Origin: Candidatus Woesearchaeota archaeon
GTDB taxonomy: Archaea; Nanobdellota; Nanobdellia; Woesearchaeales; ARS49
Assembly (NCBI GenBank): GCA_019323015.1
Contig: JAHWHY010000006.1
Coordinates: forward strand, 1,008 to 65,007
Length of the DNA stretch: 64,000 bases
Direction of reading: 5' to 3'
A program made the translations under genes and the position numbers. Below are positions 557-39,639 of this stretch, in pieces; positions within the stretch are counted from its first letter, which is position 1, and the number at the start of each line of letters is the position of its first letter. The notes below the pieces were generated by a model. The model had not been told where the DNA came from, ran no database searches, and saw only the letters and a program-made list of their open reading frames with translations.

Positions 557-2187
<1,631 letters not shown>

Positions 2188-4195: not shown

Positions 4196-4405
4196 TCAAG
4201 AAGTTTGAATTGATTGGCATTCCCATTGCGGTTCGCATTCTTTACTGCATCCTAAGAATACGGGACGCGTTCCTTCTGTACAAGTAATATCTTTATGTAC
4301 ACAATATTCTCCTTTGCAGCAACTATTGTCCTCTTTTTCATAACATTGTACAGTACAGCCTGCTACAATAAGGGCTAAAATCAAAAGTAAAAATGTTCTT
4401 TTCAT
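4196..4405 (-). CDS. small secreted Cys-rich lipoprotein (69 aa)
   Basis: Re-called from the internal Met MKRTFLLLILALIVAGC..., because the upstream part of the 119-aa ORF overlaps two tRNA genes. Signal peptide plus lipobox IVAGC, then 12 Cys in 50 residues including a CC doublet. Confidence 0.55.
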   Translation of the reverse strand: MKRTFLLLILALIVAGCTVQCYEKEDNSCCKGEYCVHKDITCTEGTRPVFLGCSKECEPQWECQSIQTS

Positions 4406-4444
4406 AAGCTTTTCAAAAAGGATGTCATATAAATATGTTTGTAT

Positions 4445-4514: not shown

Positions 4515-4523
4515 AAAACTGAA

Positions 4524-4653
4524 TGGGCCCGGAGGGAATCGAACCCTCGACCCACACCTTTCTAAAGGCACTGGCCTTGGAAAGACCAGCAAAAATCGCA
4601 GATTTTTGCGCTGCCTTGTAAGGGTGTTGTCATAGCCGCTAGACCACGGGCCC
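4524..4653 (-). tRNA. tRNA-Val (anticodon TAC) with a ~58-nt canonical-position intron
   Basis: Reverse complement GGGCCCGTGGTCTAGCGGCTATGACA ACACC cuTACa[intron]a GGTGT GGGTC GAGGGTTCGATTCCCTC CGGGCCC A. Confidence 0.8.
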
Positions 4654-4759
4654 ATAAGTGTGAGGAAATATTATTGGTTTAAAAGGTTTACGCTATCTCG
4701 CGAATATAGAATGCAAATCGTTTTCGCGCTTGCAGCCTTGTGCTGCACTTGTTTGGATT

Positions 4760-4780
4760 CTAGCCTTTCTTAAAGGCTAG
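4760..4780. promoter_or_regulatory. 21-bp perfect palindrome in a divergent promoter region (tRNA-Val / Cys-lipoprotein array)
   Basis: CTAGCCTTT-CTT-AAAGGCTAG. Confidence 0.4.
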
Positions 4781-4870
4781 TTTGAAAGGTTTACTGTTCC
4801 CTGCGTAATTTGAGTAATGTTTATATAATAGAACGTCTGTAACAGTCTTAATATTAAAAAAGGTGATATT

Positions 4871-5230
4871 ATGCGAAAAGTTATTTTGCTAACACTTCTT
4901 GTTTGTCTAGCTTTGTTTGCTATTGGCTGCAAGTCAGGGGCTGCTGTTTATGGCAGATATCCTGGAAGCACAGACAAGGTTTATGTTCCAGAGTACCAGC
5001 ATCGTGCAGTTTTTTATCCAGTTGACATGTGCTGTGTGCTTGGAGACAGGCTTTATTGTGAAACTCCTCAAGAGATAGAGAACTGTTTAAGTCAGGGGGG
5101 CAGGCTTGCAAAGCCAGGAACAATCCCTACCTGCTGCGAGATTGGCGGTGAGATTAAGGGAAATATAGTGGAATCATTTACGTTTTACGACTGCCGTTCT
5201 AGAGGAGGACGTGTTGTTCCTTGTAGATAA
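4871..5230 (+). CDS. secreted Cys-rich lipoprotein, paralog 1 (119 aa)
   Basis: Signal peptide plus lipobox (LFAIGC) and 11 Cys with the pattern CC..C..QGG...CC...C..GG...C. SD AAAGGTGA and TATA GTTTATATAAT upstream. Confidence 0.7.
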   Translation: MRKVILLTLLVCLALFAIGCKSGAAVYGRYPGSTDKVYVPEYQHRAVFYPVDMCCVLGDRLYCETPQEIENCLSQGGRLAKPGTIPTCCEIGGEIKGNIVESFTFYDCRSRGGRVVPCR

Positions 5231-5242
5231 ATAGGTGATAAA

Positions 5243-5620
5243 ATGAGAAAAATAATCTTAACAACTTTAGTGCTGGCATGCTTGGCTGTGTTAGTCGGCT
5301 GCATGACAGGAGAAGCTATTAGAGGTCCGCAGGGTTATCCTGCAAGAGATGATATGACTTACAGGCCTGCTTATGAACAGCCTGTGCAGATGATTCCAAC
5401 GCCGACACCAGCTCCTGTTTGCTGTGAGCTTCGCTGTGAAACTGTTTGCGGAAGTTCTGGTGATCCTGCTGTAAGCAATTGTTTTGCTGCAGGCGGAAGA
5501 GCTATGCAGTGGGGTTTTGAATTTACCTGCTGTTACTTTGATAACACGCCGACATCTGAACATTCGTGGACAGAGTGTTTAAGGCAGGGCGGACATCCTA
5601 TCTCAATGAGGGTGCAATAA
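5243..5620 (+). CDS. secreted Cys-rich lipoprotein, paralog 2 (125 aa)
   Basis: Lipobox LVGC and the same repeated CC...C..GG module (CCELRC...CFAAGG / CCYF...CLRQGG). Confidence 0.7.
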   Translation: MRKIILTTLVLACLAVLVGCMTGEAIRGPQGYPARDDMTYRPAYEQPVQMIPTPTPAPVCCELRCETVCGSSGDPAVSNCFAAGGRAMQWGFEFTCCYFDNTPTSEHSWTECLRQGGHPISMRVQ

Positions 5621-5949
5621 TGAGATTCGCAATACCGCTCGTGCTTATTTTGTGCCTTATCTTGATAGGGTGTGAGACAAGCGGACAAGCATACCAAATG
5701 CCTGCAAAAGAGCAAGAGATTTATCAGCTTCAGTCTGCAAAAATCTGCTGCGCAGTCAAGAACCTGCGTGGCGAATTTGTTTACACTGTTGCTGAAAATG
5801 ATGCTGCATGCACTAATCTGCGAGGTATGGTGACAAACTGTCCTCGTGTCTGCTGTAATGTTAACGGCCAGATCTTCGGGGAATACAGCATTAACTTCTG
5901 CTTAATAAGAGAAGGCGTTCCTGTGCAGTGCCCTGCCCTGCGCTGGTAA
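5620..5949 (+). CDS. secreted Cys-rich lipoprotein, paralog 3 (109 aa)
   Basis: Start re-called at MRFAIPLVLILCLILIGC, giving a TAATG overlap with paralog 2. Pattern CC...C.NLRG...CC...C.REG...C. Confidence 0.6.
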   Translation: MRFAIPLVLILCLILIGCETSGQAYQMPAKEQEIYQLQSAKICCAVKNLRGEFVYTVAENDAACTNLRGMVTNCPRVCCNVNGQIFGEYSINFCLIREGVPVQCPALRW

Positions 5950-19671: not shown

Positions 19672-19890
19672 CTATTTTCTTACTGCTAATCGTATATCTC
19701 CGTCATTTACTGTTTTTCTTCCTGCGTGTTTTGAGATCTTTACTGCCTGGCTTGCTATGTCCTGTGCTTTATCTTCTATTATTTCAACAAGAACGTCTAG
19801 TGCATCTGAACTAATCCTCTGCGCACCTGCCTGCATCATTATTCTTGCAAGCGGTGCTTTAGGAATAGTCGTGGCTCTTTTAACTGCCAT
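19672..19890 (-). CDS. archaeal histone (HMf/HTa family histone fold)
   Basis: 72 aa: PKAPLARIMMQAGAQRISSDA...AVKISKHAGRKTVNDGDIRLAVRK, a canonical archaeal histone. TATA ATATATAAAT and SD GGGGGAT upstream. Confidence 0.85.
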   Translation of the reverse strand: MAVKRATTIPKAPLARIMMQAGAQRISSDALDVLVEIIEDKAQDIASQAVKISKHAGRKTVNDGDIRLAVRK

Positions 19891-20887: not shown

Positions 20888-21235
20888 TTATTTTACAATG
20901 ATTTTAGCAGATTCTCCTTCTCCCATCTCTATTGCTCCGCCTGTATATACTATTGTGCTGTTTGCTACTTGCGGCGGTTGTGTTTGTGCTGCTGTTGTTA
21001 TTGGAGGCACTGTTGTGTTTTGTGTATTGTTTTCAATGCTTGTGTTGCTTTCTGTTTTATTTTCCAGTATTTTTGGAGGCATAACTGTTATTTCCTGCTT
21101 TACCTCAACTTCAGGCTCTTTTGGTACTGTCTTGCTCTCTGTTTCATTCATGCCTGCCAATTCTTCTGCTGGCGGAACACATGCTATTACCAGAAGTAAT
21201 AGGCTTATTGCTGTTAGTATATGTATTGCTTTCAT
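20888..21235 (-). CDS. secreted lipoprotein, T/N/P-rich, hypothetical
   Basis: Signal peptide plus VIAC lipobox. Confidence 0.5.
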   Translation of the reverse strand: MKAIHILTAISLLLLVIACVPPAEELAGMNETESKTVPKEPEVEVKQEITVMPPKILENKTESNTSIENNTQNTTVPPITTAAQTQPPQVANSTIVYTGGAIEMGEGESAKIIVK

Positions 21236-21256: not shown

Positions 21257-22105
21257 TTATTTAAACTTTTCTGCCTGGTTTAAGAACTCTACAAAGGAAT
21301 TGATGTGCTTTAAGTATTTCTTAAATGCCTCTTGTAACATCTCTGGCGTGATTTTTCGGTCAGGGTGCGGCTTTAGTATCATTTCTTCTATATATTTTTG
21401 TTTTTCTAGAATGTCTGACTTGAAGTTTTGCGGGTCTCTTAGAAGTTCTATTGCGCGGAATATCTGCTGTATCATTCCGCTTGTGTGGGTCTGTTCTATG
21501 TGGTTCTTAAGCTTTTCATAATCAAATTTTTCGCCAGGGAACTTGTTGAAGTATATCCATGCAAGCTGCTTGCTGAATGCTCTCATCTCAGCGTTGTCCA
21601 TTATGTAAAACAAGTACCCCTCAAATTCGCCTGTTGGAAAGCTTTCTGTATGGTGGAATATGTGATCGCATTCATGGTATATGCTTGTTATGACCAATGT
21701 TAGATTGTGTTCTAGCTGTCCTTGGTTCTCTGACTCATCTATTATTCCCGTCATGATGGATATTCCTGCATATTCGTCATCTATGATGTCGCAATGGGCA
21801 TATGCCGAGCCCCAGGATTTTCCTATGGGTATGCTTATGGGCTTTTTGCAGATATCTGGAAAATTTTCCAGCAAGTAGGGATCAGTTACCCAGAATTTCT
21901 TCATCTTGTCATTTTTTTCCCAAACCTGGAATATGCACTTTCGAAAGGGTATGGGCTTTTTTTCTTCAAATTTTTTCTTGGCAAATATCTTTGCTGCAGC
22001 GCGGAACTTGTCTGCAATAAAATTTGCAAACAGTATTGATGCCTCCTCTTCTTTGGTGTATTTTATTAATCCCAGTTCTTTTGCAATGTCGCGAAACAAT
22101 TCCAT
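21257..22105 (-). CDS. hypothetical protein with an HExxH motif (putative zinc metallohydrolase)
   Basis: YHECDHIFHH. No other recognisable domain. Lies directly downstream of lgt. Confidence 0.4.
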   Translation of the reverse strand: MELFRDIAKELGLIKYTKEEEASILFANFIADKFRAAAKIFAKKKFEEKKPIPFRKCIFQVWEKNDKMKKFWVTDPYLLENFPDICKKPISIPIGKSWGSAYAHCDIIDDEYAGISIMTGIIDESENQGQLEHNLTLVITSIYHECDHIFHHTESFPTGEFEGYLFYIMDNAEMRAFSKQLAWIYFNKFPGEKFDYEKLKNHIEQTHTSGMIQQIFRAIELLRDPQNFKSDILEKQKYIEEMILKPHPDRKITPEMLQEAFKKYLKHINSFVEFLNQAEKFK

Positions 22106-22147: not shown

Positions 22148-22897
22148 CTACTTTCTAATCCTGTACAGCAAATAAACTCCTGCTATGAACATAGGAATAT
22201 TCAGGCACTGTCCCATTGTTAATGGGCCTATCATTAGTTCTGGTTCTCTGACATACTCTGTCAAGAATCTGAAGACAGAATATAATATCAAGAACCATCC
22301 AAGAAGATATCCTGGTTTTCTCTTGAGGTTGCGTTGAAAAAACAAGAATCCAAATATTACTAAATTATATGCTGCTTCATAAAGTTGTGATGGGTGCCTG
22401 AAGCCTTCTGCAGAGGGAAACTTTACTCCCCAAGGTAAGGAAGTAACCCTTCCATACAGTTCTCCATTGATGAAATTGCCGATTCTTCCAAACACTTGTG
22501 CAAGAGCTAATGGAACAACAAAGACATCGCATAATTGAAGAAAGCTTATTTTTTTCTTTCTTGAAAACGCATATCCTGCTATCAAGACTCCTATTAATCC
22601 GCCATGAAAACTCAAGCCGCCGTGCCATATTGCTATTATTTCAGAAGGGTTTGCAATATAGTAAGACGGATTATAGAATATGATCTCCCCTAGTCGTGCT
22701 CCTATAATCAATGCTGCTACAAGCCAGATCATCAGGTCATCAAGGTCTTTCAGTGTAATCTTAAGTGTCTTCTTCTTTACAGCTGCTCTTGCATAAAGAT
22801 AGATTACAATAAAGCTTAGGACATACATCAAGCCGTACCATCTTACTTCTAGAGGCCCTAATGAAAGAATCACTGGATTTAGATTATGAGTCCACAT
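22148..22897 (-). CDS. lgt: prolipoprotein diacylglyceryl transferase
   Basis: Exact match to the Lgt PROSITE signature G-R-x-[GA]-N-[FYW]-[LIVMF]-N-x-E-x(2)-G as GRIGNFINGELYG, plus RWYGLMY and HPSQLYEA motifs. 7 predicted TM helices. Confidence 0.8.
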   Translation of the reverse strand: MWTHNLNPVILSLGPLEVRWYGLMYVLSFIVIYLYARAAVKKKTLKITLKDLDDLMIWLVAALIIGARLGEIIFYNPSYYIANPSEIIAIWHGGLSFHGGLIGVLIAGYAFSRKKKISFLQLCDVFVVPLALAQVFGRIGNFINGELYGRVTSLPWGVKFPSAEGFRHPSQLYEAAYNLVIFGFLFFQRNLKRKPGYLLGWFLILYSVFRFLTEYVREPELMIGPLTMGQCLNIPMFIAGVYLLYRIRK

Positions 22898-22898
22898 T

Positions 22899-23690
22899 TT
22901 ACATCTTTTGTATTGTTAATGATATATAAATCCTTGCTATTGTCATTGCAGGAAGCAATAAGATAAATCCAATTATGATTCCTGCTAAAGGATGTATAGA
23001 AGCCAGTAATTTTATCACGATATTAAGCGCGAGTAAATATACTGCAATCAATAATATTGATGGCAATAACTGCTTTATCTTGCTTGTGCCGGTGCTTATG
23101 CTTTTTCTGAGATTTAGTTTTATATAGGATATGACTGCAAAGTATGCTATGAATATCAGGTAAAACACCAGTACAACATTTAGTGTGTTTGATGCTTGTG
23201 TCTGCATTAGTGTGCTTATGAGTATTTTTCTTATGTCTACAACAAGCCCTAATGCATAGTAAAGTGCAAAAAGGATAAACCATAATATGTTTAAGAGCAG
23301 GAATTTTTTGAGGTAATCAAGATACTTTATTTTCTTTCCAGTGAGCTGTAAAGCTATTTTCCAATTAACTGCCTGAAAGATACAATAAGTCAGGTATGTT
23401 GTGGCTGCGAGTATTAATAAAAGCCAGATTATGTTGTTGAAGTATGGTGCAATCACTTCTGATGATAGTGCAGAGAACATGCTTTGGCTATCTCTTGTTG
23501 CTGTTTTTACTGCCTCTCCTGCGTGTGCTCCTATTATGTTGACATTAGCCATTAATTTGAGGTATATTGGTGCTGTTGCAAAGCCGTAAACAAAAAAGAA
23601 CAGAATGTCAAGGAATATGCTTAGAAAAAACAGTTTTTTGTTGTCATATGCTGTTCTGATGGCTTTTTTTAGCAGTGTGGTCTCTTTCAT
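22899..23690 (-). CDS. polytopic membrane protein, hypothetical
   Basis: Start re-called at MKETTLLKK, giving a 4-nt overlap with the upstream small gene. 6-7 TM helices. Confidence 0.45.
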   Translation of the reverse strand: MKETTLLKKAIRTAYDNKKLFFLSIFLDILFFFVYGFATAPIYLKLMANVNIIGAHAGEAVKTATRDSQSMFSALSSEVIAPYFNNIIWLLLILAATTYLTYCIFQAVNWKIALQLTGKKIKYLDYLKKFLLLNILWFILFALYYALGLVVDIRKILISTLMQTQASNTLNVVLVFYLIFIAYFAVISYIKLNLRKSISTGTSKIKQLLPSILLIAVYLLALNIVIKLLASIHPLAGIIIGFILLLPAMTIARIYISLTIQKM

Positions 23691-23821
23691 GCTATTGACT
23701 CTATTAGTGCTTGTGCTCCTGGCGTGGGAAAGAGAATGTCCAGGTTTGCTATGACCCACGCGAGCACGACTATGATAATTAAAAGTATAATAATAAGAAA
23801 AATATCTTCTTTTTTAGCCAT
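23687..23821 (-). CDS. 44-aa single-TM membrane protein
   Basis: MAKKEDIFLIIILLIIIVVLAWVIANL.... Operonic spacing with its neighbours. Confidence 0.35.
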   Translation of the reverse strand: MAKKEDIFLIIILLIIIVVLAWVIANLDILFPTPGAQALIESIA

Positions 23822-23823
23822 GT

Positions 23824-24012
23824 TTATAACATTCCAGTGAAATACATGACCAGCACTACTACCACAACAAGTGCTATTATTCCCCAAATTGCCAGCTTGA
23901 TCTCAGGAGCACAGGTTGTTGACTCAACTCTATAAACTGGTGCTGGTTTTGGCCTGAATTTTAATTTTGGTTTTGACTTTTTAGTTTTCCTTCTTTTTTT
24001 CTTCTTAGCCAT
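23824..24012 (-). CDS. 62-aa protein with a polybasic N-terminus and a C-terminal TM
   Basis: MAKKKKRRKTKKSKPKLKFRPK...IWGIIALVVVVVLVMYF. Confidence 0.4.
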   Translation of the reverse strand: MAKKKKRRKTKKSKPKLKFRPKPAPVYRVESTTCAPEIKLAIWGIIALVVVVVLVMYFTGML

Positions 24013-24050: not shown

Positions 24051-25112
24051 CTATTTAAAAATGTTTCTATCTTTGTAGAGTGTTTTTGCAAATGGGTAAA
24101 GGATTGCCTTTATGATGTCTGGCCTGTACCATTTTGCAAAGAAGGCAAGTGCATCTGTTTTTTCTGCTTTTTTTAGTATTGACACATATTGTTCACTGCT
24201 GGCATAGGAATATCGCAGGCGGTTTGAGATTCCTTGTTTTAGAATTGCCCCAAATTCGTCTTTCCATAGAGTGTCGTAATTTTTGTGTTCTATTATGCTT
24301 TTTGCCGCGAGATAGCCTGAAGTTATGGCATACATTATTCCAAAGCCGAAAAGATAGTCTTGGAATCCTGCTGCTTCTCCGGCATAGCGTCTTTTGTTCT
24401 TGATGGCAGAATCTCTTATCTGGAAGTTTATGCCGCAGCCAATGGGCTTTTTGTTTTGAATCTTGAATTTCTTGAGTTTCTGGAATCTTTTGATTGTTTT
24501 ATCAACTAATTTTTGTGCGTTTTTTTTCTGGTCACTGAAAATGCAGGTGATCAGGCATGCTTGCTTGTTGACCACGATAAGGTAAGCATATAACTCAGGG
24601 GATAGTTTGTCATCTGCAATAGACATTACTGTGTTTGGCAGGTCTGTCTTGAATTTAATGCCTTCCCCCACTGCTATGTGTTTTGCTGCGCCTGTTGCAA
24701 CAATGTCTGCCTTGCTTTCAGGCAGTCTTTTCTTGAATATTATTTTCACTCCTGCTTCTAGTGCCTGTTTTTTCAAGGACGCGTCTAATGTGCCTTTTGC
24801 ATTTCCTCTCTGGATAAGATAGCAGATTGGCTTTTTGGATTTAAGCAGGTATTTTCTGGATTTATAATCATACATCTCAAATGATTTCATGGGCGTATAC
24901 TTGAACAAGGGCTTTATGTTCATTCTTTTCAGTGCTTTTAAAGTGTCTTCATCTGTTGTCCAGTTCTCAAGTCCCTGAAAGTCACCGTTTGACTTGAAGC
25001 CCACGTCAGAATTTTGTTCATATACTGTTGCTTTGTATCCTGCTTTTGCAAGATTGATTGCAGCAGAAAGTCCTGCAGGCCCTGCTCCTGCTATTTTTAT
25101 CTCTTTTTTCAT
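24051..25112 (-). CDS. geranylgeranyl reductase-family FAD-dependent oxidoreductase
   Basis: GAGPAGLSAA Rossmann/FAD motif; 353 aa. Family typical of archaeal lipid saturation. Confidence 0.65.
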   Translation of the reverse strand: MKKEIKIAGAGPAGLSAAINLAKAGYKATVYEQNSDVGFKSNGDFQGLENWTTDEDTLKALKRMNIKPLFKYTPMKSFEMYDYKSRKYLLKSKKPICYLIQRGNAKGTLDASLKKQALEAGVKIIFKKRLPESKADIVATGAAKHIAVGEGIKFKTDLPNTVMSIADDKLSPELYAYLIVVNKQACLITCIFSDQKKNAQKLVDKTIKRFQKLKKFKIQNKKPIGCGINFQIRDSAIKNKRRYAGEAAGFQDYLFGFGIMYAITSGYLAAKSIIEHKNYDTLWKDEFGAILKQGISNRLRYSYASSEQYVSILKKAEKTDALAFFAKWYRPDIIKAILYPFAKTLYKDRNIFK

Positions 25113-25186: not shown

Positions 25187-25510
25187 ATGCATGAGGGGTT
25201 TATTGCTCAGGAATTGATTGACAAGGCTAAGGCACAGGGCACTGTGAAGAAGATTGTGGTTGAAGTGGGTGACTTGGCTCACTTGCCTGCAGATGAATTA
25301 AAAGAGGCCCTGGAAAAAAGAGTTGATTGGAAGATTGAGATAATCAAGGTTCCTGGTCTTGTTGAGTGCAGGTGCGGTTACAAGGGGGTGCCTAAGATTC
25401 TTGAGAAAGCTCATGATTTAACGCTTTTTGAGTGCCCCCAGTGTCATAACATTCCTTTTAAGATTTTGAAAGGAGAGGATATTGTCCTTAAGGATGTGGT
25501 GGTTGAATAA
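25187..25510 (+). CDS. hypA: hydrogenase nickel-insertion protein HypA
   Basis: MHE N-terminus and C-terminal CxxC...CxxC zinc site; 107 aa. Confidence 0.8.
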   Translation: MHEGFIAQELIDKAKAQGTVKKIVVEVGDLAHLPADELKEALEKRVDWKIEIIKVPGLVECRCGYKGVPKILEKAHDLTLFECPQCHNIPFKILKGEDIVLKDVVVE

Positions 25511-25728
25511 TGTGTTTGGCTATTCCTGGGAAGATAATAGAAATAAAAGGCAGCACTGCTGTCATTGATTATGGTTTTGAGAAAAGAGAAGCTAATGCTT
25601 CTTTGATTGATGACTTGAAGGTGGGGGATTTTGTGATTGTTAATGCAGGCTTTGTGATGGACAAGGTTCCTGAAGAGCAGGCTTTGAAATCACTTGAAGC
25701 TTGGAAAAATGCTGGAAAAAATGGTTGA
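25510..25728 (+). CDS. hypC: hydrogenase assembly chaperone HypC
   Basis: MCLAIPGKIIEI N-terminus; 72 aa. Confidence 0.85.
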   Translation: MCLAIPGKIIEIKGSTAVIDYGFEKREANASLIDDLKVGDFVIVNAGFVMDKVPEEQALKSLEAWKNAGKNG

Positions 25729-26173
25729 GACTCGTGAAGAAGTTTTTTTTAATTATGCTCGGCAATGCCTTTCTTTTTTGAAAGGAAATGCCAGAGTTCC
25801 TGAGGCTGTTTATGAGCAGTTGGTCAGGCATAGGGAAGAAGGGACTGTTCCTGCCTGGGATTTGATAGAAAAAGCATTTATTAATGCAATTCCAGAATAC
25901 TGGAAATTTGTAAGAGCTAATAAATTGGATGAGTATTCTCCTGATTCTGTGCGCAGGTTCTGGCTTGAGCACCATAATACTTATGCAAACAAGGAATGTC
26001 ATGTTTTTGTTGGTTTGGTTGAATCAATTAGTGATGATGGGAATGGCAGCCCTGTTTATACAGTTAAATGCCCTGGCTTTTGCAGGAAATTTTCAGGCAA
26101 GTGGTTTAGGGATGCTAAGTTTGGTGACAGGATTTCTGTGCATTTAGGTTTTGCCTCAGAGAAATTAAAATGA
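25721..26173 (+). CDS. hypothetical protein embedded in the hydrogenase maturation cluster
   Basis: Start re-called at MVETREE (8-nt overlap with hypC). 150 aa with a C-terminal CPGFC pair. No recognisable family. Confidence 0.5.
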   Translation: MVETREEVFFNYARQCLSFLKGNARVPEAVYEQLVRHREEGTVPAWDLIEKAFINAIPEYWKFVRANKLDEYSPDSVRRFWLEHHNTYANKECHVFVGLVESISDDGNGSPVYTVKCPGFCRKFSGKWFRDAKFGDRISVHLGFASEKLK

Positions 26174-26535
26174 AATTGCTTTGTTTTGGGAATGAGTTTA
26201 TTGAAGAGGATTCTCTTGCCAAAGAGCTGGCAGATGAATTAAAGATCGAGGGTGTTGAATTCATTAAATGTGACTCTCTGAATGGCATTAAAGGGGATGT
26301 CATTGTACTTGATGTTGTAAAGGGTTTAGAAGAAGTTAAGTTAATCCCTTTGGATAAGGTTAAGGATTTTCATCCAGTCTCTATGCATGATTTTGACTTA
26401 GGCACTGAGTTGAAATTAAGAAAATCAATCGGCGAGATAAATAATGTCACAATCATTGGCATTCCTATGCAGGGTGACAAGGAAAATATAAAGCAGGGAA
26501 TCATAAAACTTATAAATGAGTTAAGAAAAAAATAA
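26170..26535 (+). CDS. hydrogenase maturation endopeptidase (HycI/HybD family)
   Basis: N-terminal GNEF...D metal-binding start and the conserved His in VSMHDFDLG; 121 aa. Confidence 0.65.
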   Translation: MKLLCFGNEFIEEDSLAKELADELKIEGVEFIKCDSLNGIKGDVIVLDVVKGLEEVKLIPLDKVKDFHPVSMHDFDLGTELKLRKSIGEINNVTIIGIPMQGDKENIKQGIIKLINELRKK

Positions 26536-26541
26536 TGTGGG

Positions 26542-27054
26542 GTGAATATTATGACTACTAAAGAAAATCTTCAGGAGGCTTTTGCAGGAGAAAGCCAGGC
26601 TAACAGGAAATACTTGTTTTTTGCAGATAAGGCTGAGATGGAGGGCAGAAAGCAGATTGCAAGGTTGTTTAGGGCTGCTGCTGCTTCTGAGACTGCTCAT
26701 GCAAGGAATCACTTGAATGTCTTGAAAGGCATTAAGACTACGGAGGATAACTTGGTTGATGCTTTTGAGGGCGAGAAGTATGAGTCTGAGAAGATGTATC
26801 CGAGATTTATCAAGGAAGCTGAAGAGGCAAGTGATAATGATGCAATAAGGACGTTTAAGTGGGCTATTGCTGCTGAAAAGATTCATGAGCGGGAATACGA
26901 GAAAGCATTGAAGGCAATTAAAGAGAAAAAGGATTTAGAGCCGACTAATTATCATGTCTGCGAGTGCTGCGGTTACACTATTGTGGGTGATGAGATTCCG
27001 GACATCTGCCCTGTTTGCAGTGCTCCTAAGGAGATGTTCAAGGAAATCAAATAA
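26542..27054 (+). CDS. rubrerythrin
   Basis: Di-iron ExxH motifs (ESQANRKYLFFADKAE...ASETAHARNH) plus a C-terminal rubredoxin-like CxxC...CxxC. Confidence 0.8.
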   Translation: MNIMTTKENLQEAFAGESQANRKYLFFADKAEMEGRKQIARLFRAAAASETAHARNHLNVLKGIKTTEDNLVDAFEGEKYESEKMYPRFIKEAEEASDNDAIRTFKWAIAAEKIHEREYEKALKAIKEKKDLEPTNYHVCECCGYTIVGDEIPDICPVCSAPKEMFKEIK

Positions 27055-27123
27055 CCCCACTCAATAATGACAACAAATTATTTTAAAGAAAACCGCTTTT
27101 TAGGAGTTGCATAGTGATTTTCT

Positions 27124-27217
27124 AAAAGCATTGATGGGAGAATTTAGACTGATGCGAGCGTTTGATCTTCGGATTAATTGTCTTGTTGAAGTTTAGACTT
27201 CGGACATCAATGCTTTT
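27124..27217. terminator. long-range inverted repeat in a convergent intergenic region (rubrerythrin / hydrogenase large subunit)
   Basis: AAAAGCATTGATG ...67 nt... CATCAATGCTTTT, with internal TTTAGACT(T/G)...CGG repeats. Read as a bidirectional terminator or structured RNA. Confidence 0.35.
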
Positions 27218-27221
27218 ATTA

Positions 27222-28496
27222 CTATTCCCAAATAATCTCCAGAAAGTGTGTTGCACAACTAATGCAGGGATCATATGCTCTTATCAGTTTCTCTATCTCT
27301 AATTGTATTTCTTCTTTTGGTTTGTCTAGTAATGAAGGCAAGAAGTTCTTTATGTCTTCTTCTAGGTTTGGGAGGTTTTGTGTAGTGGGTGTTGTTATGT
27401 TAATGAAGTTAGTAAAGCCTTTGTTGTCATATTTATACTTGTGAAATACAATTCCTCTTGGTGCTTCGTTTGCTCCTATGCCGGTTCCTGCTTTTGGCTT
27501 TATCTCAATAGGTTTTTCTGGCTTAAAGTCATTTCCTTCAATTAATTCTATTGCTTTCTTGAGTCCTTCATATATTTCTACTGCTTGTGCTGGGTTGTTC
27601 ATGAAGGGGTTGTGTTTTCTTGGGATTATGCATCTGCACATATCTTTTGATTCTTTTGATAATTGATTATAATTGTTCAGTATTCTTGACCATGCTCCTA
27701 CCATGTAGCTTCCTTCTTTTGTTTTTGCAAACTCTGCTGTTGAGCCTTGCTTAAAGAATTCCTTGAAATACTGTTCATAGTCTGTTACTGCTATGCATTC
27801 TTTGCCCCCGCTGCATGTTATCTGGTCTTCTGGGCAGAAAAAGCAGTTTTTCTTGGCCTTTAGTGCATAGTGTTTTGTTTCGCGTGTAAAGTCTGGGTAT
27901 TCCAGCCCGCAGAACAGGTGTGCTGTTTTTTCTGCGTCTGCAAGGCTTGCTTTTGCGCTTTTTAGCAGGCTTTTGAATTCTTCTGGTTTTGGTATTGCTA
28001 CAAAACCGCCGGGCGTTAAAGTAAAAGGGTGGATGTCTCTTCCTCCTATCACTCTTACTATGTCATTGGCTGTTTGTTTTATTTTTAGTGCTGTTTTTAC
28101 CTTATCTGGATGTTTTTGTGCCATCTGCACTGCGTTTGGAAAACCGACATAATCTGGCAGTGTCAAGAAATAAAGATGCAGGACATGGCTCTGTATTGTT
28201 CCGCCGATGTTGAGTATCTCTCTTAATAGTTCTGTTTGTTCAGTTACTTGCACGCCCATTGCTTTTTCAGTTGCTTTTACAGAAGTCAGGCCATGAACCG
28301 GGGAGCATATTCCGCAGATACGGGAAGCAATATGATTTACGTCATTGTATTTTTTGTCTTTTAGTAAGCCTTCAAAGTATCTTGAGCCCTCAAATATGCT
28401 TAAGTCTACTTTTTTGATTTCTCCTTTGTCTACCTTGATGTGGAGTTTTGCATGTCCTTCTATTTTTGTTATGTGGTTAAGGTTTATTTTTGCCAT
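27222..28496 (-). CDS. [NiFe] hydrogenase large subunit (group 3-like, 424 aa)
   Basis: N-terminal L1 motif RICGICSPVH and C-terminal L2 motif DPCISCATH. Confidence 0.8.
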   Translation of the reverse strand: MAKINLNHITKIEGHAKLHIKVDKGEIKKVDLSIFEGSRYFEGLLKDKKYNDVNHIASRICGICSPVHGLTSVKATEKAMGVQVTEQTELLREILNIGGTIQSHVLHLYFLTLPDYVGFPNAVQMAQKHPDKVKTALKIKQTANDIVRVIGGRDIHPFTLTPGGFVAIPKPEEFKSLLKSAKASLADAEKTAHLFCGLEYPDFTRETKHYALKAKKNCFFCPEDQITCSGGKECIAVTDYEQYFKEFFKQGSTAEFAKTKEGSYMVGAWSRILNNYNQLSKESKDMCRCIIPRKHNPFMNNPAQAVEIYEGLKKAIELIEGNDFKPEKPIEIKPKAGTGIGANEAPRGIVFHKYKYDNKGFTNFINITTPTTQNLPNLEEDIKNFLPSLLDKPKEEIQLEIEKLIRAYDPCISCATHFLEIIWE

Positions 28497-29232
28497 TTTT
28501 TTCTATGTTTTGGAACATGTTCAGTCTTTCCATTATTTCTTTTTCATCAAGACCAAATGATTTAAACAGTTTTATTTCAGCTTCATAGTCTGTTTTTGGT
28601 CTTGGTCCTCTGCATCCCATGCATTCAAAGTTTGCTTTTGTGCATATTGCGTCGCATCCTCCGTGTGTTACTGGTCCTAAACAGATTTTTTTCTGTCTTA
28701 AGAAGCATTCTGGTGTGCCTTGTCTTGGGCATTGTGCGCATACAGGGCCTTCAAATTCTTTCATTATTTTGCCTTTCAGGAATTGGTTAAGGAAATTCAT
28801 GAATTCTTCTTTTATGATTGGGCAGCCGTACATGTAATAGTCTACTTTTACATATTCTCCTATTCCTGCTGCTGGTATTGAGTCTTTGAGCATTCTTTGG
28901 TTGTAGACGTATTTCTCAAGCTCTTTGTTTTCCACAAAGTTTCGCATTGCTGGTACTCCTCCGTGGCACGCGCATGCCCCTAGTGCAACAAGAGTCTTGC
29001 TTTTCTTTCGTATTTCTTTTAGTTTCTGTACTTCTTTTTTTGTGGTTATTGCTCCTTCTACAAACATCAGGTCAAATTTTGCTTTTCTGTTCTTTTCTTT
29101 CAGAAGATGGAAGTATTGGACATCAAACTTCTTGAAGATGTCCATTAGTTTCTCAATGAAAAGTATTGTGAACTGGCATCCCTGGTCGCATGTAAATGAT
29201 ACAATGCCTAGTACTGGCTTTTTGTCACCCAT
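28477..29232 (-). CDS. [NiFe] hydrogenase small subunit (group 3 delta-like, 251 aa)
   Basis: FTCDQGCQ and GACACHGG Fe-S cysteine motifs plus C-terminal CxxC clusters. 20-nt overlap with the large subunit gene. Confidence 0.75.
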   Translation of the reverse strand: MGDKKPVLGIVSFTCDQGCQFTILFIEKLMDIFKKFDVQYFHLLKEKNRKAKFDLMFVEGAITTKKEVQKLKEIRKKSKTLVALGACACHGGVPAMRNFVENKELEKYVYNQRMLKDSIPAAGIGEYVKVDYYMYGCPIIKEEFMNFLNQFLKGKIMKEFEGPVCAQCPRQGTPECFLRQKKICLGPVTHGGCDAICTKANFECMGCRGPRPKTDYEAEIKLFKSFGLDEKEIMERLNMFQNIEKNGKNKP

Positions 29233-29611: not shown

Positions 29612-30352
29612 TTAATTATATGTATTTTCTTTAGAAATCCTGTAATAATCATATTTGATGCTGCAATTTGTGAAGTTTTTTGCAATCTGGTTCATTCCTT
29701 CTGAATCAAGGTCTTCTGCTTCTGCAGGCCTTATGTTATCTGCTGTTATTTTTAGTGTATTGCCTTCTTTTTTAATATCAAGGGTCCAGGCATGCATTTT
29801 GTGTGCAGAGAATGAGTTGCAAGCCAGGAAAGGGTACTTTTCAACAGCAATTCCTTCAGTTGTGTATGGCTCCACTTCCAGTGACCAAATATATCCTCTG
29901 AAATTGCCTCCTGCTCCAGTATGCTTTATAGAATATGTGTAGGTGTGGTTGATATGTTTCCAAAAGTATATGCTTTTGTCTATATTTTCGCAGATTTTTT
30001 TGTCTTTGAACAGTTTTGTCTTAAGAATTGCTTCTGTTATGATGCTTGGCGGCAGGTCTTTGAACAATACTTCATTAAAGCATCCTTGTTTGAATTCTTT
30101 TTCAAGTTTTTCTGTTTCTTTTTTAGAAAAGCCCAATTCATTTAGAACAGCATAAGGCTCATCAAATAATTTTTTCCCTGTAGAATCATAGCATTTTGTG
30201 TGTGTCTTGCCATCCCAAGTATTAAAAGCAGAGTTGCAGGCGAAAATTGCTTCTTTAATCCCTTCATATTCGCTCTCTTGCTGTTCTTTGGCAGTGCATC
30301 CTGCCAGTACTGCTGCTAAGCATATGAATAATATTAAATATCTTGCCCCCAT
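29612..30352 (-). CDS. secreted lipoprotein, hypothetical (246 aa)
   Basis: Signal peptide plus LAGC lipobox; preceded by the 47-bp repeat copy 2. Confidence 0.6.
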   Translation of the reverse strand: MGARYLILFICLAAVLAGCTAKEQQESEYEGIKEAIFACNSAFNTWDGKTHTKCYDSTGKKLFDEPYAVLNELGFSKKETEKLEKEFKQGCFNEVLFKDLPPSIITEAILKTKLFKDKKICENIDKSIYFWKHINHTYTYSIKHTGAGGNFRGYIWSLEVEPYTTEGIAVEKYPFLACNSFSAHKMHAWTLDIKKEGNTLKITADNIRPAEAEDLDSEGMNQIAKNFTNCSIKYDYYRISKENTYN

Positions 30353-38001: not shown

Positions 38002-39639
38002 CTATTTCCCATACCCAATTAATTCTGCAACTGGTTCGTCTTCATCCAGCTTCAGGTAGGCGTTTGTTCCATTGTTGTTGAACTGCCTGATGACGTGGAC
38101 GTCGTCGTCGCCTGAGCTTTTGACATACTCAAACCAGCATCTGTTCTCTGGATCCACGTTTGTAACAGTTCTTAATTTGCTGTCTGGTATGTTGTATACC
38201 ATTAGGTCTGTGTTGCTTTCCCAGTCATATGGGCAGAGCAGCAGGTTTTCACTGTCAGGTGTTATGCCTATCAGTGCAAGGTCTGAGCCTTCAACAGAGA
38301 TAACAGCATCTTTCCCACCAGTAACTAGGCTTTCTAGCAATATAACAACATCATTGGTCTCAACATCTCTTGCCTGTATGGCAGCGTATTTTCCGTCATT
38401 TGTGACGAGCACGTTTCCATTGCTGTACTCATCCTCATTGTTGTCTCCTACTTCAGTAAATGCGTGTGTCTGCGGGTCATACAGGTTTATCTGTGATCCT
38501 TCTGTCTGTGTAGACCAGTGTTGTATCACTGCTCTTCCGTCTGCTGAGAATCCTTTGCAGTATGAGTCTTCAACTCCTGCAACCCATTCTAATGGGTCTT
38601 CAAACCATTGTGTTTCAGCATCAAAGATGAATGTCCTGTGGTTCTTGCGGTCCTGGAATGCAGCGACTTTGCCGTCTAGTGACATTCTGTCAAACTGGAA
38701 GTTTTCATTTACAGTTGTCACTGGCGCTATAAAGGTTGGATTTAGTCCGCCTTGTGTTGTGTCAACATACCACCATTCATAGTCTGTGTGATTCGGTCCT
38801 ACTGAGAATTTTGCTATCATGCCTGCTCCGTCATGGGATAATCTGAATTCCCAGCCGAGTCCTCTGTTTGCTGGCAGAATTAATGGTTTTGTCACGTCAT
38901 TTAGTGCGTCATAAACAAATATTTCTTCTTGCACTGGAACCCATTTGCTGAATACAGCTGTGTTTCCTGAGCTTGCAAGCAGGTTCGTGCATTCCTGCTT
39001 GCCTGAACTTATCTGTACAAGAATTCCTTCTGGGAATGTGCTTGTGCCTGGCTTTAGAGCGTATGTTGTGGTTATAAAGTTTTCGTCTTGTTGGCCTATA
39101 AACACTATGTCTCCCAGGGTTCCTTTTATGTCTGAATATAATGCATTTGGAAACAGCTGTTCTGTATCATTAGTTGATACTCTGTGCAAGAATACCTGTC
39201 CGCCATCAACCCCGTCCCAGGCATAGAATAATACTTTGTCTGGTGTGATTGCTCTTGCGTTTTCGCCGATATATGCGAATTCTTCTGATTCAAATAATAC
39301 TGCTCCGCTTTCATCAAATATGTTTAGTCTTACTTTGTCCTTGCCGACTTTTTTCTTGGCTATTACATTGTTTCCTGCAAGGCCTAGTGTGATATTGTCT
39401 TGTTCAGAATTTCTTGAAAGGTTGTGTATTTGTCCGTCTTTGTGCATTGCTGCTTCAATATCGTCTTCAATTGATGTTTTTAATGCAATCCTGCTTCCGT
39501 CTTCAGAAATATCTACAATTTGTGATACGTGCTGTTGTTGTGGTCCCTGAACATCAACGTATTCTGTGACTTTTTCAACACATCCTGGTAATAGTATTGA
39601 TGCTATTGCTGCGATTAATCCTGATTTTTTTCTTTTCAT
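38002..39639 (-). CDS. large secreted lipoprotein (545 aa), probably beta-propeller-type; hypothetical
   Basis: Signal peptide plus LPGC lipobox. Acidic, K-poor composition unlike most proteins in the window. Confidence 0.5.
   Translation of the reverse strand: MKRKKSGLIAAIASILLPGCVEKVTEYVDVQGPQQQHVSQIVDISEDGSRIALKTSIEDDIEAAMHKDGQIHNLSRNSEQDNITLGLAGNNVIAKKKVGKDKVRLNIFDESGAVLFESEEFAYIGENARAITPDKVLFYAWDGVDGGQVFLHRVSTNDTEQLFPNALYSDIKGTLGDIVFIGQQDENFITTTYALKPGTSTFPEGILVQISSGKQECTNLLASSGNTAVFSKWVPVQEEIFVYDALNDVTKPLILPANRGLGWEFRLSHDGAGMIAKFSVGPNHTDYEWWYVDTTQGGLNPTFIAPVTTVNENFQFDRMSLDGKVAAFQDRKNHRTFIFDAETQWFEDPLEWVAGVEDSYCKGFSADGRAVIQHWSTQTEGSQINLYDPQTHAFTEVGDNNEDEYSNGNVLVTNDGKYAAIQARDVETNDVVILLESLVTGGKDAVISVEGSDLALIGITPDSENLLLCPYDWESNTDLMVYNIPDSKLRTVTNVDPENRCWFEYVKSSGDDDVHVIRQFNNNGTNAYLKLDEDEPVAELIGYGK

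What the first reader, a model, noticed from the sequence alone, without database searches (positions are those of the whole stretch)
22148..22897. Bacterial-type prolipoprotein diacylglyceryl transferase (Lgt) in an archaeal genome with many lipobox proteins
The 249-aa polytopic protein matches the Lgt PROSITE signature exactly (GRIGNFINGELYG) and has the RWYG and HPSQLYE motifs. Lgt is the first enzyme of bacterial lipoprotein maturation, and Lgt/Lsp/Lnt homologs are generally reported absent from archaea. Here it co-occurs with at least 9 predicted lipobox-containing secreted proteins in 64 kb, with boxes LAGC, IVAGC, AIGC, LVGC, LIGC, VTGC, LCGC, LPGC and VIAC. This argues that the organism uses a bacterial-style diacylglyceryl lipid anchor, possibly acquired by HGT. 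That would be notable for archaeal ether-lipid biology.
Basis: partly seen in the sequence, partly recalled or inferred. Interest (0 to 1): 0.65.

Follow-up and report, generated by a model that had tools for sequence, protein, structure and literature searches.

The report
Bacterial-type lipoprotein enzyme Lgt in archaea
A small symbiotic-type archaeon (Woesearchaeota) carries a genuine, well-conserved copy of Lgt, the bacterial enzyme that fastens secreted proteins to membrane lipid, together with many proteins bearing the matching signal, although the archaeal lipoprotein literature says archaea have no such enzyme.

Summary
Confirmed. ORF 22148-22897 (-) is a full-length Lgt. It scores 267 bits against Pfam PF01790 and 229 bits against TIGR00544 (cutoff 119). 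Every experimentally essential E. coli residue is conserved. Its AlphaFold model matches E. coli Lgt (5azb) at TM 0.89.

The gene is resident in an archaeal genome. It lies 20 kb from an archaeal 16S/23S operon and 2.3 kb from a histone gene. Its composition and codon usage are typical of the window. The same arrangement occurs in 10 independently assembled contigs.

It belongs to a large Woesearchaeota/Nanoarchaeota clade, which is monophyletic against the nearest bacterial Lgts (98/100 NJ bootstraps) and under strong purifying selection (dN/dS 0.04). This fits one old bacteria-to-archaea transfer followed by vertical inheritance.

All nine lipobox proteins are real, and their Cys is conserved in orthologs down to 24% identity.

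Not shown: which lipid is transferred, and which enzyme cleaves the signal peptide. No Lsp was found in the window or in any archaeal flank fetched.

New leads are a Woesearchaeota-specific six-helix membrane protein translationally coupled to lgt, and Lit-family genes near lgt in three related archaeal loci.

Reviews and primary papers (2018-2026) state that archaea lack Lgt homologs. Only automatic database annotations name this one.

The parts
22148..22897 (-). lgt: prolipoprotein diacylglyceryl transferase homolog, 249 aa
   Evidence: PF01790 267 bits over the full length. TIGR00544 228.7 bits, above the 118.9 cutoff. E. coli Lgt 5azb E=3.9e-44. AF2 model pLDDT 91.3 with Foldseek TM 0.89 to 5azb. 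Essential residues are invariant.
22899..23690 (-). Conserved lgt-linked polytopic membrane protein ('partner'), 263 aa, no known family
   Evidence: Its stop codon lies 1 nt before the lgt ATG. The family was found only in Woesearchaeota-labelled or unlabelled metagenome proteins (21 hits). It sits directly upstream of lgt in 7 of 15 distinct archaeal loci and in none of 73 bacterial loci. The AF2 model has pLDDT 84.5 and is all-helical. There is no PDB fold match, no Pfam or NCBIfam hit and no profile similarity to Lgt.
23687..23821 (-). 44-aa single-TM ORF whose TGA overlaps the partner's ATG (ATGA)
   Evidence: Sequence reading. It is called as a gene in independent assemblies L084 and L085.
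23824..24012 (-). 62-aa lysine-rich, C-terminally anchored small membrane protein, first gene of the cluster
   Evidence: A TATA-like TTTATATT and a GGGGGTG motif lie upstream. It is conserved in L001 at 66% identity and is called in L084 and L085.
20888..21235 (-). Predicted lipoprotein, 115 aa, lipobox VIAC, whose only Cys is the lipobox Cys. It lies two genes downstream of lgt here and directly downstream in L001; L086 has an uncharacterized 115-aa ORF at that position.
   Evidence: The L001 ortholog keeps VIAC. Synteny is shown.
4196..4405 (-). Predicted lipoprotein, 69 aa, Cys-rich, lipobox VAGC
   Evidence: Weak Pfam LPAM_1 hit.
4871..5230 (+). Predicted lipoprotein, 119 aa, lipobox AIGC
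   Evidence: It is a paralog of the 5243 gene (31% identity).
5243..5620 (+). Predicted lipoprotein, 125 aa, lipobox LVGC
5620..5949 (+). Predicted lipoprotein, 109 aa, lipobox LIGC (start corrected to the ATG that overlaps the previous stop, TAATG)
12823..13107 (+). Predicted lipoprotein, 94 aa, Cys-rich, lipobox VTGC
   Evidence: The L001 ortholog has VAGC.
16630..17013 (-). Predicted lipoprotein, 127 aa, lipobox LCGC
29612..30352 (-). Predicted lipoprotein, 246 aa, lipobox LAGC
   Evidence: All 8 database orthologs (67-100% identity) keep [LI][ATI]GC while the rest of the signal peptide varies.
38002..39639 (-). Predicted lipoprotein, 545 aa, lipobox LPGC
   Evidence: Eight full-length homologs and a 71-aa N-terminal fragment, down to 24% identity, keep a signal peptide ending in xxGC or xxSC.
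558..2183 (-). Archaeal 16S rRNA (context marker that fixes the domain of the contig)
   Evidence: RF01959, 1369 bits. tRNA-Ala lies at 424-497 and the start of archaeal 23S at 1-173.
19672..19890 (-). Archaeal histone (context marker, same strand, 2.3 kb from lgt)
   Evidence: PF00808, 63.6 bits. It is linked to lgt in independent assemblies L084 and L085.

Best explanation
The ORF encodes a functional Lgt-family transferase resident in the chromosome of a Woesearchaeota (DPANN) archaeon.

Origin. An ancestor of this archaeal lineage acquired the gene from Bacteria. It has since been inherited vertically and is fully adapted to the host genome.

Proposed mechanism. Proteins with a Sec-type signal peptide ending in a lipobox ([LVIA]-x-[GA]-C) are exported. 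On the outer face of the membrane, Lgt transfers the glyceryl-lipid moiety of a phosphatidylglycerol-type membrane lipid to the thiol of the lipobox Cys. This forms a thioether anchor and releases glycerol phosphate, using the same catalytic residues as E. coli Lgt (Y26, H103, R143, N146, E151, G154, Y235, R239, E243).

In this lineage Lgt probably does the job that AliA does in haloarchaea. It is co-transcribed, with a 1-nt gap, with a lineage-specific six-helix membrane protein that may act as an accessory factor, for example in lipid or substrate delivery or in signal-peptide handling.

Shown: family membership, fold, conserved catalytic residues, purifying selection, archaeal residence, a monophyletic archaeal clade, abundant lipobox substrates with a conserved Cys, and gene linkage.

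Inferred: enzymatic activity, direction of transfer, replacement of AliA, and the role of the partner.

Unresolved: whether the transferred moiety is ester-linked diacylglyceryl or ether-linked archaeol, and which enzyme removes the signal peptide.
For: Family, motif and fold.

Conservation. All nine essential E. coli residues checked are invariant or nearly invariant across 47 archaeal-clade sequences. dN/dS against the 86%-identical L001 ortholog is 0.043.

Residence in the genome. GC is 38.4% against 40.0+-3.0 for window genes, and codon usage ranks 5th closest to the pool among 26 genes of similar length. An archaeal rRNA operon, a histone and aEF1A/aEF2 are on the same contig. The identical protein occurs on 10 contigs from several sources with the same neighbours. 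L001, a 250-kb Woesearchaeota contig, is syntenic over about 20 kb.

Clade. More than 120 database clusters have >=52% identity, and every named one is Woesearchaeota or Nanoarchaeota. The archaeal sequences are monophyletic against the 74 nearest bacterial Lgts in 98/100 NJ bootstraps. Other members sit next to archaeal-type TyrRS, NucS, KaiC-like or ArlJ-like genes, or aEF1A/aEF2.

Substrates. There are nine lipobox proteins, 9/19 against 1/38 in the control. The Cys is conserved in orthologs. DPANN are predicted to be lipoprotein-rich (PMC12462473).

Linkage of the partner gene.
Against: - There is no biochemical evidence.
- No Lsp (PF01252) or Lnt was found in the 64-kb window or in the archaeal lgt flanks fetched, so the pathway downstream of Lgt is undefined.
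- I could not test whether AliA/AliB homologs are present or absent, so 'replacement of AliA' is conjecture.
- Woesearchaeota are reported to lack their own membrane-lipid synthesis (PMC6586073; PMC8421398), so the donor lipid is unknown. If it is an archaeal ether lipid, its glycerol stereochemistry is opposite to that of the known Lgt substrate.
- The tree is neighbour-joining on a bacterial sample biased toward the query's nearest relatives, so the donor lineage is unresolved.
Confidence: 0.77

Rival explanations
1. The lgt gene is bacterial DNA that entered the archaeal contig by mis-assembly or mis-binning.
For: Lgt is otherwise a bacterial hallmark. The nearest non-archaeal relatives are Desulfobacterota, Acidobacteria, Nitrospirota and Proteobacteria at 42-51% identity.
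Against: - The gene is on the same contig as an archaeal 16S/23S operon, a histone 2.3 kb away and aEF1A/aEF2.
- It has the same neighbours in 10 independently assembled contigs from JGI, Logan, ENA and NCBI, and in a 250-kb contig of a different MAG at 86% identity.
- GC, GC3 and codon usage are typical of the window.
- The start codon is 1 nt from the stop of a Woesearchaeota-specific gene.
Confidence: 0.01
2. The enzyme is active and transfers an archaeal ether-lipid moiety (archaeol from archaetidylglycerol). It would give the same thioether-archaeol anchor that AliA makes in Haloferax. A bacterial enzyme would have been adapted to lipids of opposite glycerol stereochemistry.
For: - The organism is an archaeon.
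- Studied DPANN take archaeal lipids from archaeal hosts (PMC7414124).
- A geranylgeranyl-reductase-like flavoprotein lies 1.2 kb upstream, but the match is weak (TIGR02032, 57 bits, below cutoff).
- Some Woesearchaeota carry isoprenoid (MEP) genes and UbiA prenyltransferases (PMC8204110).
- Five clade-specific substitutions exist, and the bacterial D249 position is relaxed.
Against: - The catalytic and lipid-binding residues are unchanged from Bacteria, with no sign of active-site remodelling. By contrast, the native archaeal enzyme AliA is so diverged that it is barely recognisable as Lgt-like.
- Lit-family genes, whose known chemistry needs an ester-linked acyl chain, lie 3-8 kb from lgt in three related archaeal loci.
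Confidence: 0.4
3. The enzyme transfers an ester-linked diacylglyceryl from bacterial-type phosphatidylglycerol present in the archaeon's membrane. That lipid would be scavenged from bacterial hosts or the environment, or made with bacterial-type G3P and fatty-acid genes. The pathway would then be bacterial in chemistry as well as in enzyme.
For: - The active site is unmodified.
- Lit-family proteins (PF07314, 93-102 bits on the two scanned here) lie near lgt in L087, L088 and L090.
- Castelle et al. 2021 report bacterial G3P dehydrogenase and fatty-acid genes in some Woesearchaeota, and murein-lytic domains that suggest bacterial hosts (PMC8204110).
- Woesearchaeota lack GGGPS and DGGGPS (PMC8421398).
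Against: - No bacterial-type lipid genes occur in this window.
- No Lit or Lsp occurs in this window.
- The archaeal Lit-family proteins fall far below NCBIfam's Lit equivalog cutoff (39-55 bits against 400) and just under the TIGR01906 cutoff, so their function is uncertain.
- No lipidomic data link ester lipids to Woesearchaeota.
Confidence: 0.37
4. The Lgt homolog has been recruited to a different job, such as lipid head-group remodelling or modification of a non-lipoprotein substrate. The lipobox proteins would then be lipidated by an AliA-type enzyme encoded elsewhere in the genome.
For: AliA (arCOG02177) is reported in DPANN 'with some gaps' (PMC12462473). I could not check this genome for it.
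Against: - Every residue needed for the canonical reaction is conserved across the whole clade under strong purifying selection.
- A lipobox protein gene lies directly downstream of lgt in L001 and two genes downstream in the window.
- No precedent is known to me for a non-lipoprotein role of an Lgt with an intact signature (own knowledge).
Confidence: 0.08

Closest known systems
E. coli Lgt (phosphatidylglycerol:prolipoprotein diacylglyceryl transferase; PDB 5azb/5azc)
   Same: - Same family, with a full-length HMM match.
- Same signature motif, and all essential residues tested in E. coli are conserved.
- Same fold (Foldseek E=6.8e-17, TM 0.89, rmsd 2.7 A, 34% identity).
- Lipobox substrates are present.
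   Different: - The host is an archaeon.
- The protein is 249 aa against 291 aa. It has only about 17 residues where E. coli has the 40-residue stretch between positions 155 and 195, a short form shared with its nearest bacterial relatives.
- The bacterial D249 position is not conserved.
- The donor lipid is unknown.
- No Lsp or Lnt partner was detected nearby.
Short Lgts of Desulfobacterota, Acidobacteria, Nitrospirota and Proteobacteria MAGs (L007-L080)
   Same: - They are the closest non-archaeal sequences, at 42-51% identity over the full length.
- They have similar length and the same short stretch at E. coli 155-195.
   Different: - The archaeal sequences form their own clade (98/100 bootstraps), with five clade-specific substitutions.
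- None of the bacterial loci has the partner gene upstream.
AliA/AliB (arCOG02177/02178) of Haloferax volcanii, the only experimentally supported archaeal lipoprotein lipidation components
   Same: The predicted role is the same: making a thioether lipid anchor on the lipobox Cys of Sec/Tat substrates in an archaeon (PMC12462473, PMC13631571).
   Different: - AliA attaches archaeol. The lipid here is unknown.
Lit (lipoprotein intramolecular transacylase, PF07314) of Firmicutes
   Same: Family members (PF07314, 93-102 bits on the two scanned here) are encoded 3-8 kb from lgt in three related archaeal loci, L087, L088 and L090.
   Different: - None is present in this window.
- They score far below NCBIfam's Lit equivalog cutoff.
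- Their function in archaea is untested.

Membership tests
Lgt (PF01790 / TIGR00544) | Full-length match to the family profile above the curated threshold | tested here: met
   PF01790 scores 267.3 bits (cutoff 24.9) over model positions 1-239/240. TIGR00544 scores 228.7 bits (cutoff 118.9).
Lgt (PF01790 / TIGR00544) | Lgt signature motif (E. coli G142-G154, GRxGNFxNxExxG) | tested here: met
   GRIGNFINGELYG at residues 137-149. R, N, E and the final G are invariant in 47 archaeal-clade sequences.
Lgt (PF01790 / TIGR00544) | Residues shown to be essential or important in E. coli: Y26, H103, R143, N146, E151, G154, Y235, R239, E243. The list comes from my own knowledge of Pailler 2012, Sankaran 1997 and Mao 2016; R143 and R239 are also stated. 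| tested here: met
   All are present in the window protein (Y21, H98, R138, N141, E146, G149, Y206, R210, E214). Each is conserved in 46-47 of 47 archaeal sequences.
Lgt (PF01790 / TIGR00544) | Seven-helix Lgt fold | tested here: met
   The AF2 model has pLDDT 91.3. Its only significant PDB match is 5azb (E=6.8e-17, TMq 0.89).
Lgt (PF01790 / TIGR00544) | Lipobox-bearing preprolipoprotein substrates encoded in the same genome | tested here: met
   The 64-kb window holds nine. The Cys is conserved in orthologs.
Lgt (PF01790 / TIGR00544) | Catalysis: transfer of sn-1,2-diacylglyceryl from phosphatidylglycerol to the Cys thiol | not testable with these tools
   This needs an enzyme assay or complementation. 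The donor lipid in this archaeon is unknown.
Complete bacterial lipoprotein pathway (Lgt-Lsp-(Lnt/Lit)) | Signal peptidase II (Lsp, PF01252) present | tested here: inconclusive
   Pfam scans of the window's membrane proteins found none. Neither tblastn nor a 2-sequence HMM found any, in the window or in any archaeal lgt flank fetched. The same queries did find Lsp in the bacterial locus L027. The rest of the genome was not available.
Complete bacterial lipoprotein pathway (Lgt-Lsp-(Lnt/Lit)) | N-terminal tailoring enzyme (Lnt or Lit) present | tested here: inconclusive
   The window has no Lnt-like protein (large polytopic with a CN_hydrolase domain) and no Lit. Lit-family proteins do occur in the related archaeal loci L087, L088 and L090; L087 and L088 pass the Pfam cutoff but all three miss the NCBIfam Lit equivalog cutoff.
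AliA/AliB (arCOG02177/02178) | Sequence or profile match to arCOG02177/02178 | not testable with these tools
The two family-less polytopic proteins of the window (22899-23690 and 54535-55194) show no profile similarity to Lgt, which says nothing about AliA.
LolCDE lipoprotein-release transporter | Match to LolC/LolE/LolD equivalog models above cutoff | tested here: not met
   The ABC system at 55307-58664 is MacB-type. It scores 88.8 bits on lolCE (cutoff 362) and 229 bits on LolD (cutoff 308).

The most novel reading that the evidence does not exclude
Either reading of the donor lipid crosses the 'lipid divide'.

The most novel reading not excluded is this. Woesearchaeota run a chemically bacterial lipoprotein pathway: Lgt, in some lineages Lit, and a still unknown signal peptidase. 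The pathway would work on ester-linked diacylglycerol phospholipids, so these archaea would keep bacterial-type phospholipids in their membranes. Those lipids would be taken from bacterial hosts or made with acquired G3P and fatty-acid genes. The Woesearchaeota-specific membrane protein fused into the lgt operon would be a new accessory component of this hybrid system.
Probability: 0.33. Interest if true: 0.85.

Novelty: new member of a known kind. Interest (0 to 1): 0.62.

Why it matters
The archaeal cell-surface field works from the premise that archaea have no Lgt or Lsp homologs and therefore evolved AliA/AliB (PMC6098224; PMC12462473; PMC13631571).

A large DPANN clade with a textbook Lgt under purifying selection, next to its predicted substrates, contradicts that premise for one lineage. 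It also offers a natural experiment. Either a bacterial Lgt works on archaeal ether lipids of opposite stereochemistry, or these archaea hold bacterial ester phospholipids in their membranes. Both outcomes bear on the lipid divide and on how genome-reduced DPANN symbionts, which cannot make their own lipids, build a cell surface.

The question is directly testable in three ways:
- complementation of E. coli lgt depletion or Haloferax delta-aliA;
- in vitro assays with PG versus archaetidylglycerol;
- methyl-iodide release of the anchor lipid from enrichment cultures.

The lgt-coupled membrane protein and the nearby Lit-family genes give concrete candidates for further pathway components.

Tried and rejected
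1. Lipobox regexes. A loose regex and a PROSITE-like regex were tried as evidence. Both were rejected as non-specific, hitting 10-13 of 214 shadow ORFs. They were replaced by a structured signal-peptide test.
2. Search for Lsp. These found Lsp only in the bacterial locus L027 and nothing archaeal. Sensitivity is limited and the whole genome was not available.
3. Partner protein as Lsp-like, Lgt-like or another known fold. There was no PDB match (best E=1.1, CysZ), no hhalign similarity to Lgt and no Pfam or NCBIfam hit. Only one invariant Asp is present, so a two-Asp protease like Lsp is unlikely.
4. The 219-aa 7-TM protein 54535-55194 as Lit, Lsp or Lgt-like. There was no family hit, no hhalign match and no Lit-HMM match.
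5. The MacB-type ABC system as LolCDE. Scores were far below cutoff.
8. Supplements of PMC12462473 are not held. The held supplements of PMC8204110 contain no Lgt or Lsp terms.
9. The listing of cluster members returned no taxon names for the unnamed subclade. BLAST of its flanking ORFs against small archaeal and bacterial sets was not decisive. Domain assignment instead came from archaeal-type TyrRS, NucS, KaiC-like and ArlJ-like neighbours.
10. Rfam on related loci added only tRNAs.
Full report
**1. The observation**

- It matches Pfam LGT (PF01790) from end to end at 267.3 bits, E=1.4e-79.
- It exceeds the curated cutoff of NCBIfam's lgt equivalog TIGR00544 (228.7 against 118.9 bits).
- It hits E. 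coli Lgt (5azb) at E=3.9e-44.
- The motif GRIGNFINGELYG aligns with the E. coli signature GRLGNFINGELWG. RWYG contains the equivalent of Y26, and HPSQLYE is present.
- An AlphaFold2 model built on 22 clade members has mean pLDDT 91.3. Its only significant match in the PDB is 5azb (E=6.8e-17, TM-score 0.89 on the query, rmsd 2.7 A, 34% identity).

**2. Is the contig archaeal and is the gene at home there?**

Archaeal markers in the window:
- A complete archaeal 16S rRNA (558-2183, 1369 bits), tRNA-Ala and the start of an archaeal 23S.
- An archaeal histone at 19672-19890, EF1A- and EF2-type factors, and POR subunits.

Composition of lgt:
- GC is 38.4%, against 40.0+-3.0 for 71 window genes. GC3 is 35.2%, against 37.2+-5.7.
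- Its codon usage is among the closest to the pooled usage, ranking 5 of 26 genes of similar length.

Independent assemblies:
- The identical protein is on record on 10 contigs from JGI, Logan, ENA and NCBI. Two of them were read here and have the same gene order, from the hydrogenase maturation genes through lgt to the histone.
- A 250-kb contig of a different Woesearchaeota MAG (L001, Lgt 86% identical) is syntenic over about 20 kb.
- NCBI names the exact protein 'prolipoprotein diacylglyceryl transferase [Candidatus Woesearchaeota archaeon]'.

Mis-binning or chimerism is therefore excluded for practical purposes.

**3. A clade, not a singleton**

The protein search returned more than 120 clusters at 52-100% identity. 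Every hit that carries an organism name is Woesearchaeota, Nanoarchaeota or Nanoarchaeia.

Among species-representative genomes the best matches are Woesearchaeota MAGs (86, 62, 56, 50, 46%). Two MAGs are auto-labelled 'Methanosarcinales'. One of these, L003, carries Woesearchaeota-type neighbours and the partner gene. After these come Desulfobacterota, Geobacter, Acidobacteria, Nitrospirota and Proteobacteria at 42-51%.

In a neighbour-joining tree of 47 archaeal-clade and 74 bacterial sequences, the archaeal sequences form one clade. That clade was recovered in 98 of 100 bootstrap replicates on a 63-sequence subset.
- Within-clade identity goes down to 38% (median 53%).
- Archaeal-to-bacterial identity peaks at 51% (median 41%).

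The unnamed deep subclade (P0082, P0099, P0116, P0119, P0120) is archaeal too. Its loci carry an archaeal-type TyrRS (NF006330, 297 bits, above the 220 cutoff), archaeal-type NucS (NF003270, 236 bits, above 216), KaiC-like ATPases and ArlJ/FlaJ-like proteins. One member sits on a 909,730-bp contig.

dN/dS between the window gene and L001 is 0.043, with dS saturated at 2.2.

Because Lgt is near-universal in Bacteria (established knowledge) and seen here in a single archaeal clade, the parsimonious reading is one old bacteria-to-archaea transfer followed by vertical descent. The donor lineage is not resolved by this tree.

**4. Catalytic equipment**

The residues known to matter in E. coli are Y26, H103, R143, N146, E151, G154, Y235, R239 and E243. 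This list is my own knowledge of the mutational and structural work; R143 and R239 are also quoted. All are present in the window protein, and each is conserved in 46-47 of the 47 archaeal sequences.

Differences from the nearest bacterial sequences are few:
- There are five clade-specific substitutions, at window positions 4, 67, 95, 131 and 181.
- The acidic residue at E. coli D249 is no longer conserved.
- The short stretch at E. coli positions 155-195 (about 17 residues, where E. coli has 40) is shared with the nearest bacterial relatives.

**5. Substrates**

All nine lipobox proteins exist, with textbook signal peptides: M-[KR] near the start, about 12 aliphatic residues, then [LVIA]-x-[GA]-C at position 16-20.

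The bare pattern is not specific in this AT-rich sequence. A structured test is specific: 9 of 19 signal-peptide-like called genes against 1 of 38 shadow ORFs.

The Cys is under selection:
- The two orthologs available in L001 keep VIAC and V[TA]GC.
- All eight orthologs of the 246-aa protein keep [LI][ATI]GC while the rest of the signal peptide drifts.
- Eight full-length homologs of the 545-aa protein and a 71-aa N-terminal fragment, down to 24% identity, keep a signal peptide ending in G-C or S-C.

The lipoprotein at 20888-21235 has a single Cys, the lipobox one. It lies directly downstream of lgt in L001, and L086 has an uncharacterized 115-aa ORF at that position.

None of the nine has a known domain.

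**6. The gene cluster**

On the minus strand, in order:
- a 62-aa lysine-rich tail-anchored protein (23824-24012), preceded by a TATA-like box;
- a 44-aa TM ORF (23687-23821) whose stop overlaps the next start (ATGA);
- a 263-aa all-helical membrane protein (22899-23690);
- one nucleotide;
- lgt.

The 263-aa 'partner':
- It has no Pfam or NCBIfam family.
- It has only 21 database relatives. The named ones are Woesearchaeota 'hypothetical proteins'.
- Its model is confident (pLDDT 84.5), but it has no PDB fold match and no profile similarity to Lgt.
- It lies immediately upstream of lgt, often overlapping it, in 7 of 15 distinct archaeal loci (window, L001, L002, L003, L005, L082, L086). It occurs in none of the 73 bacterial loci.
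- Its function is unknown. The tight coupling suggests an accessory role.
- In two other archaeal loci (L004, L081) the overlapping upstream gene is instead a fused ABC exporter.

**7. The rest of the pathway**

No Lsp, Lnt, Lit or Lol component was detected in the window. No Lsp was found in any archaeal flank fetched, and the same queries did find Lsp in a bacterial locus. This is inconclusive for the genome as a whole.

Unexpectedly, three archaeal lgt loci of the deep subclade encode a Lit-family membrane protein 3-8 kb from lgt, next to DsbA-like and cupredoxin genes.
- The L087 and L088 proteins score 101.7 and 92.8 bits on PF07314 (cutoff 24); the L090 protein carries a precomputed PF07314 hit.
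- They score 71-74 bits on TIGR01906, against a cutoff of 74.8.
- They score only 39-55 bits on the Lit equivalog model, against a cutoff of 400.

In Firmicutes, Lit moves an ester-linked acyl chain from the diacylglyceryl anchor to the Cys amino group (own knowledge; Lit is listed among bacterial tailoring enzymes). If the archaeal proteins do the same, the anchor would have to be ester-linked and the signal peptide removed. This is a lead, not a demonstration.

**8. What is known**
[quoted passage not shown] It finds DPANN rich in predicted lipoproteins and AliA present in DPANN 'with some gaps'.
- The 2026 JBC follow-up does not mention archaeal Lgt homologs.
- Searches combining the enzyme name with Woesearchaeota or DPANN found no paper describing it.
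- Castelle et al. 2021 catalogue bacterial systems in Woesearchaeota and Pacearchaeota: sigma-70, GroEL, DnaK, the MEP pathway, G3P dehydrogenase and fatty-acid genes, and murein-lytic domains suggesting bacterial hosts. Lgt is not mentioned in the text or in the held supplements.
- Woesearchaeota are reported to lack key archaeal lipid-synthesis genes.

The gene is therefore 'known' only as an automatic annotation.

**9. Verdict**

It overreaches only in calling the anchor diacylglyceryl.

The protein is a new, archaeal member of a well-known family. It is not a new kind of enzyme. Its interest comes from three things:
- it contradicts a standing statement in the field;
- it may explain the 'gaps' in the DPANN distribution of AliA;
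- whichever lipid it uses, something crosses the lipid divide.

Noticed in passing
window 22899-23690 (-); also L001 9208-9999, L002 6677-7441, L003 9220-10020, L005 3374-4096, L082 2390-3211, L086 4385-5194: A Woesearchaeota-specific 263-aa all-helical membrane protein family with no known domain or fold match. It is translationally coupled to lgt in 7 of 15 archaeal loci and absent from bacterial lgt loci.
   Followed up: yes
L087 16249-16878, L088 18396-19070, L090 13807-14445: Lit-family (PF07314, lipoprotein intramolecular transacylase) membrane proteins lie 3-8 kb from lgt in three archaeal loci, next to DsbA-like and cupredoxin genes. The window has none.
   Followed up: partly
L004 8250-9995 and L081 8217-10001: In two archaeal loci that lack the partner gene, a fused ABC exporter (ABC_membrane plus ABC_tran, about 590 aa) ends at or overlaps the lgt start codon.
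   Followed up: no
window 21257-22105 (-): A 282-aa protein with no family hit and an HECDH (HExxH-type) motif sits between lgt and the VIAC lipoprotein. It is absent at this position in L001 and L086, so it is probably an insertion.
   Followed up: no
window 24051-25112 (-): An FAD-dependent oxidoreductase with weak similarity to the geranylgeranyl reductase family (TIGR02032, 57 bits against a cutoff of 159) lies 1.2 kb upstream of lgt. The protein at the same position in L001 is only 28% identical.
   Followed up: partly
window 558-2183 (-): The archaeal 16S match spans 1626 nt for a 1478-position model, so about 150 nt of extra sequence (an insertion or intron) is present.
   Followed up: no
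window 4524-4653 (-) and 17073-17200 (-): Rfam tRNA matches of about 130 nt that ARAGORN does not call. They are probably intron-containing archaeal tRNAs. L004 has similar 115-nt tRNA matches.
   Followed up: no
window 4196-5949: A cluster of four small (69-125 aa) Cys-rich predicted lipoproteins. Two of them are paralogs (31% identity), and the third and fourth genes overlap by TAATG.
   Followed up: partly
window 55307-58664 (+): A MacB-type ABC system (ATPase, a 459-aa secreted protein with an NPCBM_assoc domain, and a MacB_PCD+FtsX permease). It resembles LolCDE only at the superfamily level, with scores far below the Lol cutoffs.
   Followed up: partly
window 25187-29232: [NiFe]-hydrogenase large and small subunits with HypA/HypC-type maturation genes and a rubrerythrin lie next to the lgt cluster, with the same order in L001 and L084.
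   Followed up: no
L003 and L006: Two MAG contigs labelled 'uncultured Methanosarcinales archaeon' fall inside the Woesearchaeota Lgt clade. L003 also carries the partner gene and neighbours 57-71% identical to window proteins, so its label looks wrong. L006 was not resolved.
   Followed up: partly
L088 8032-8625 and 11189-11830: Two DedA/VTT-domain membrane proteins, a family linked to lipid flipping, flank lgt in one archaeal locus.
   Followed up: no
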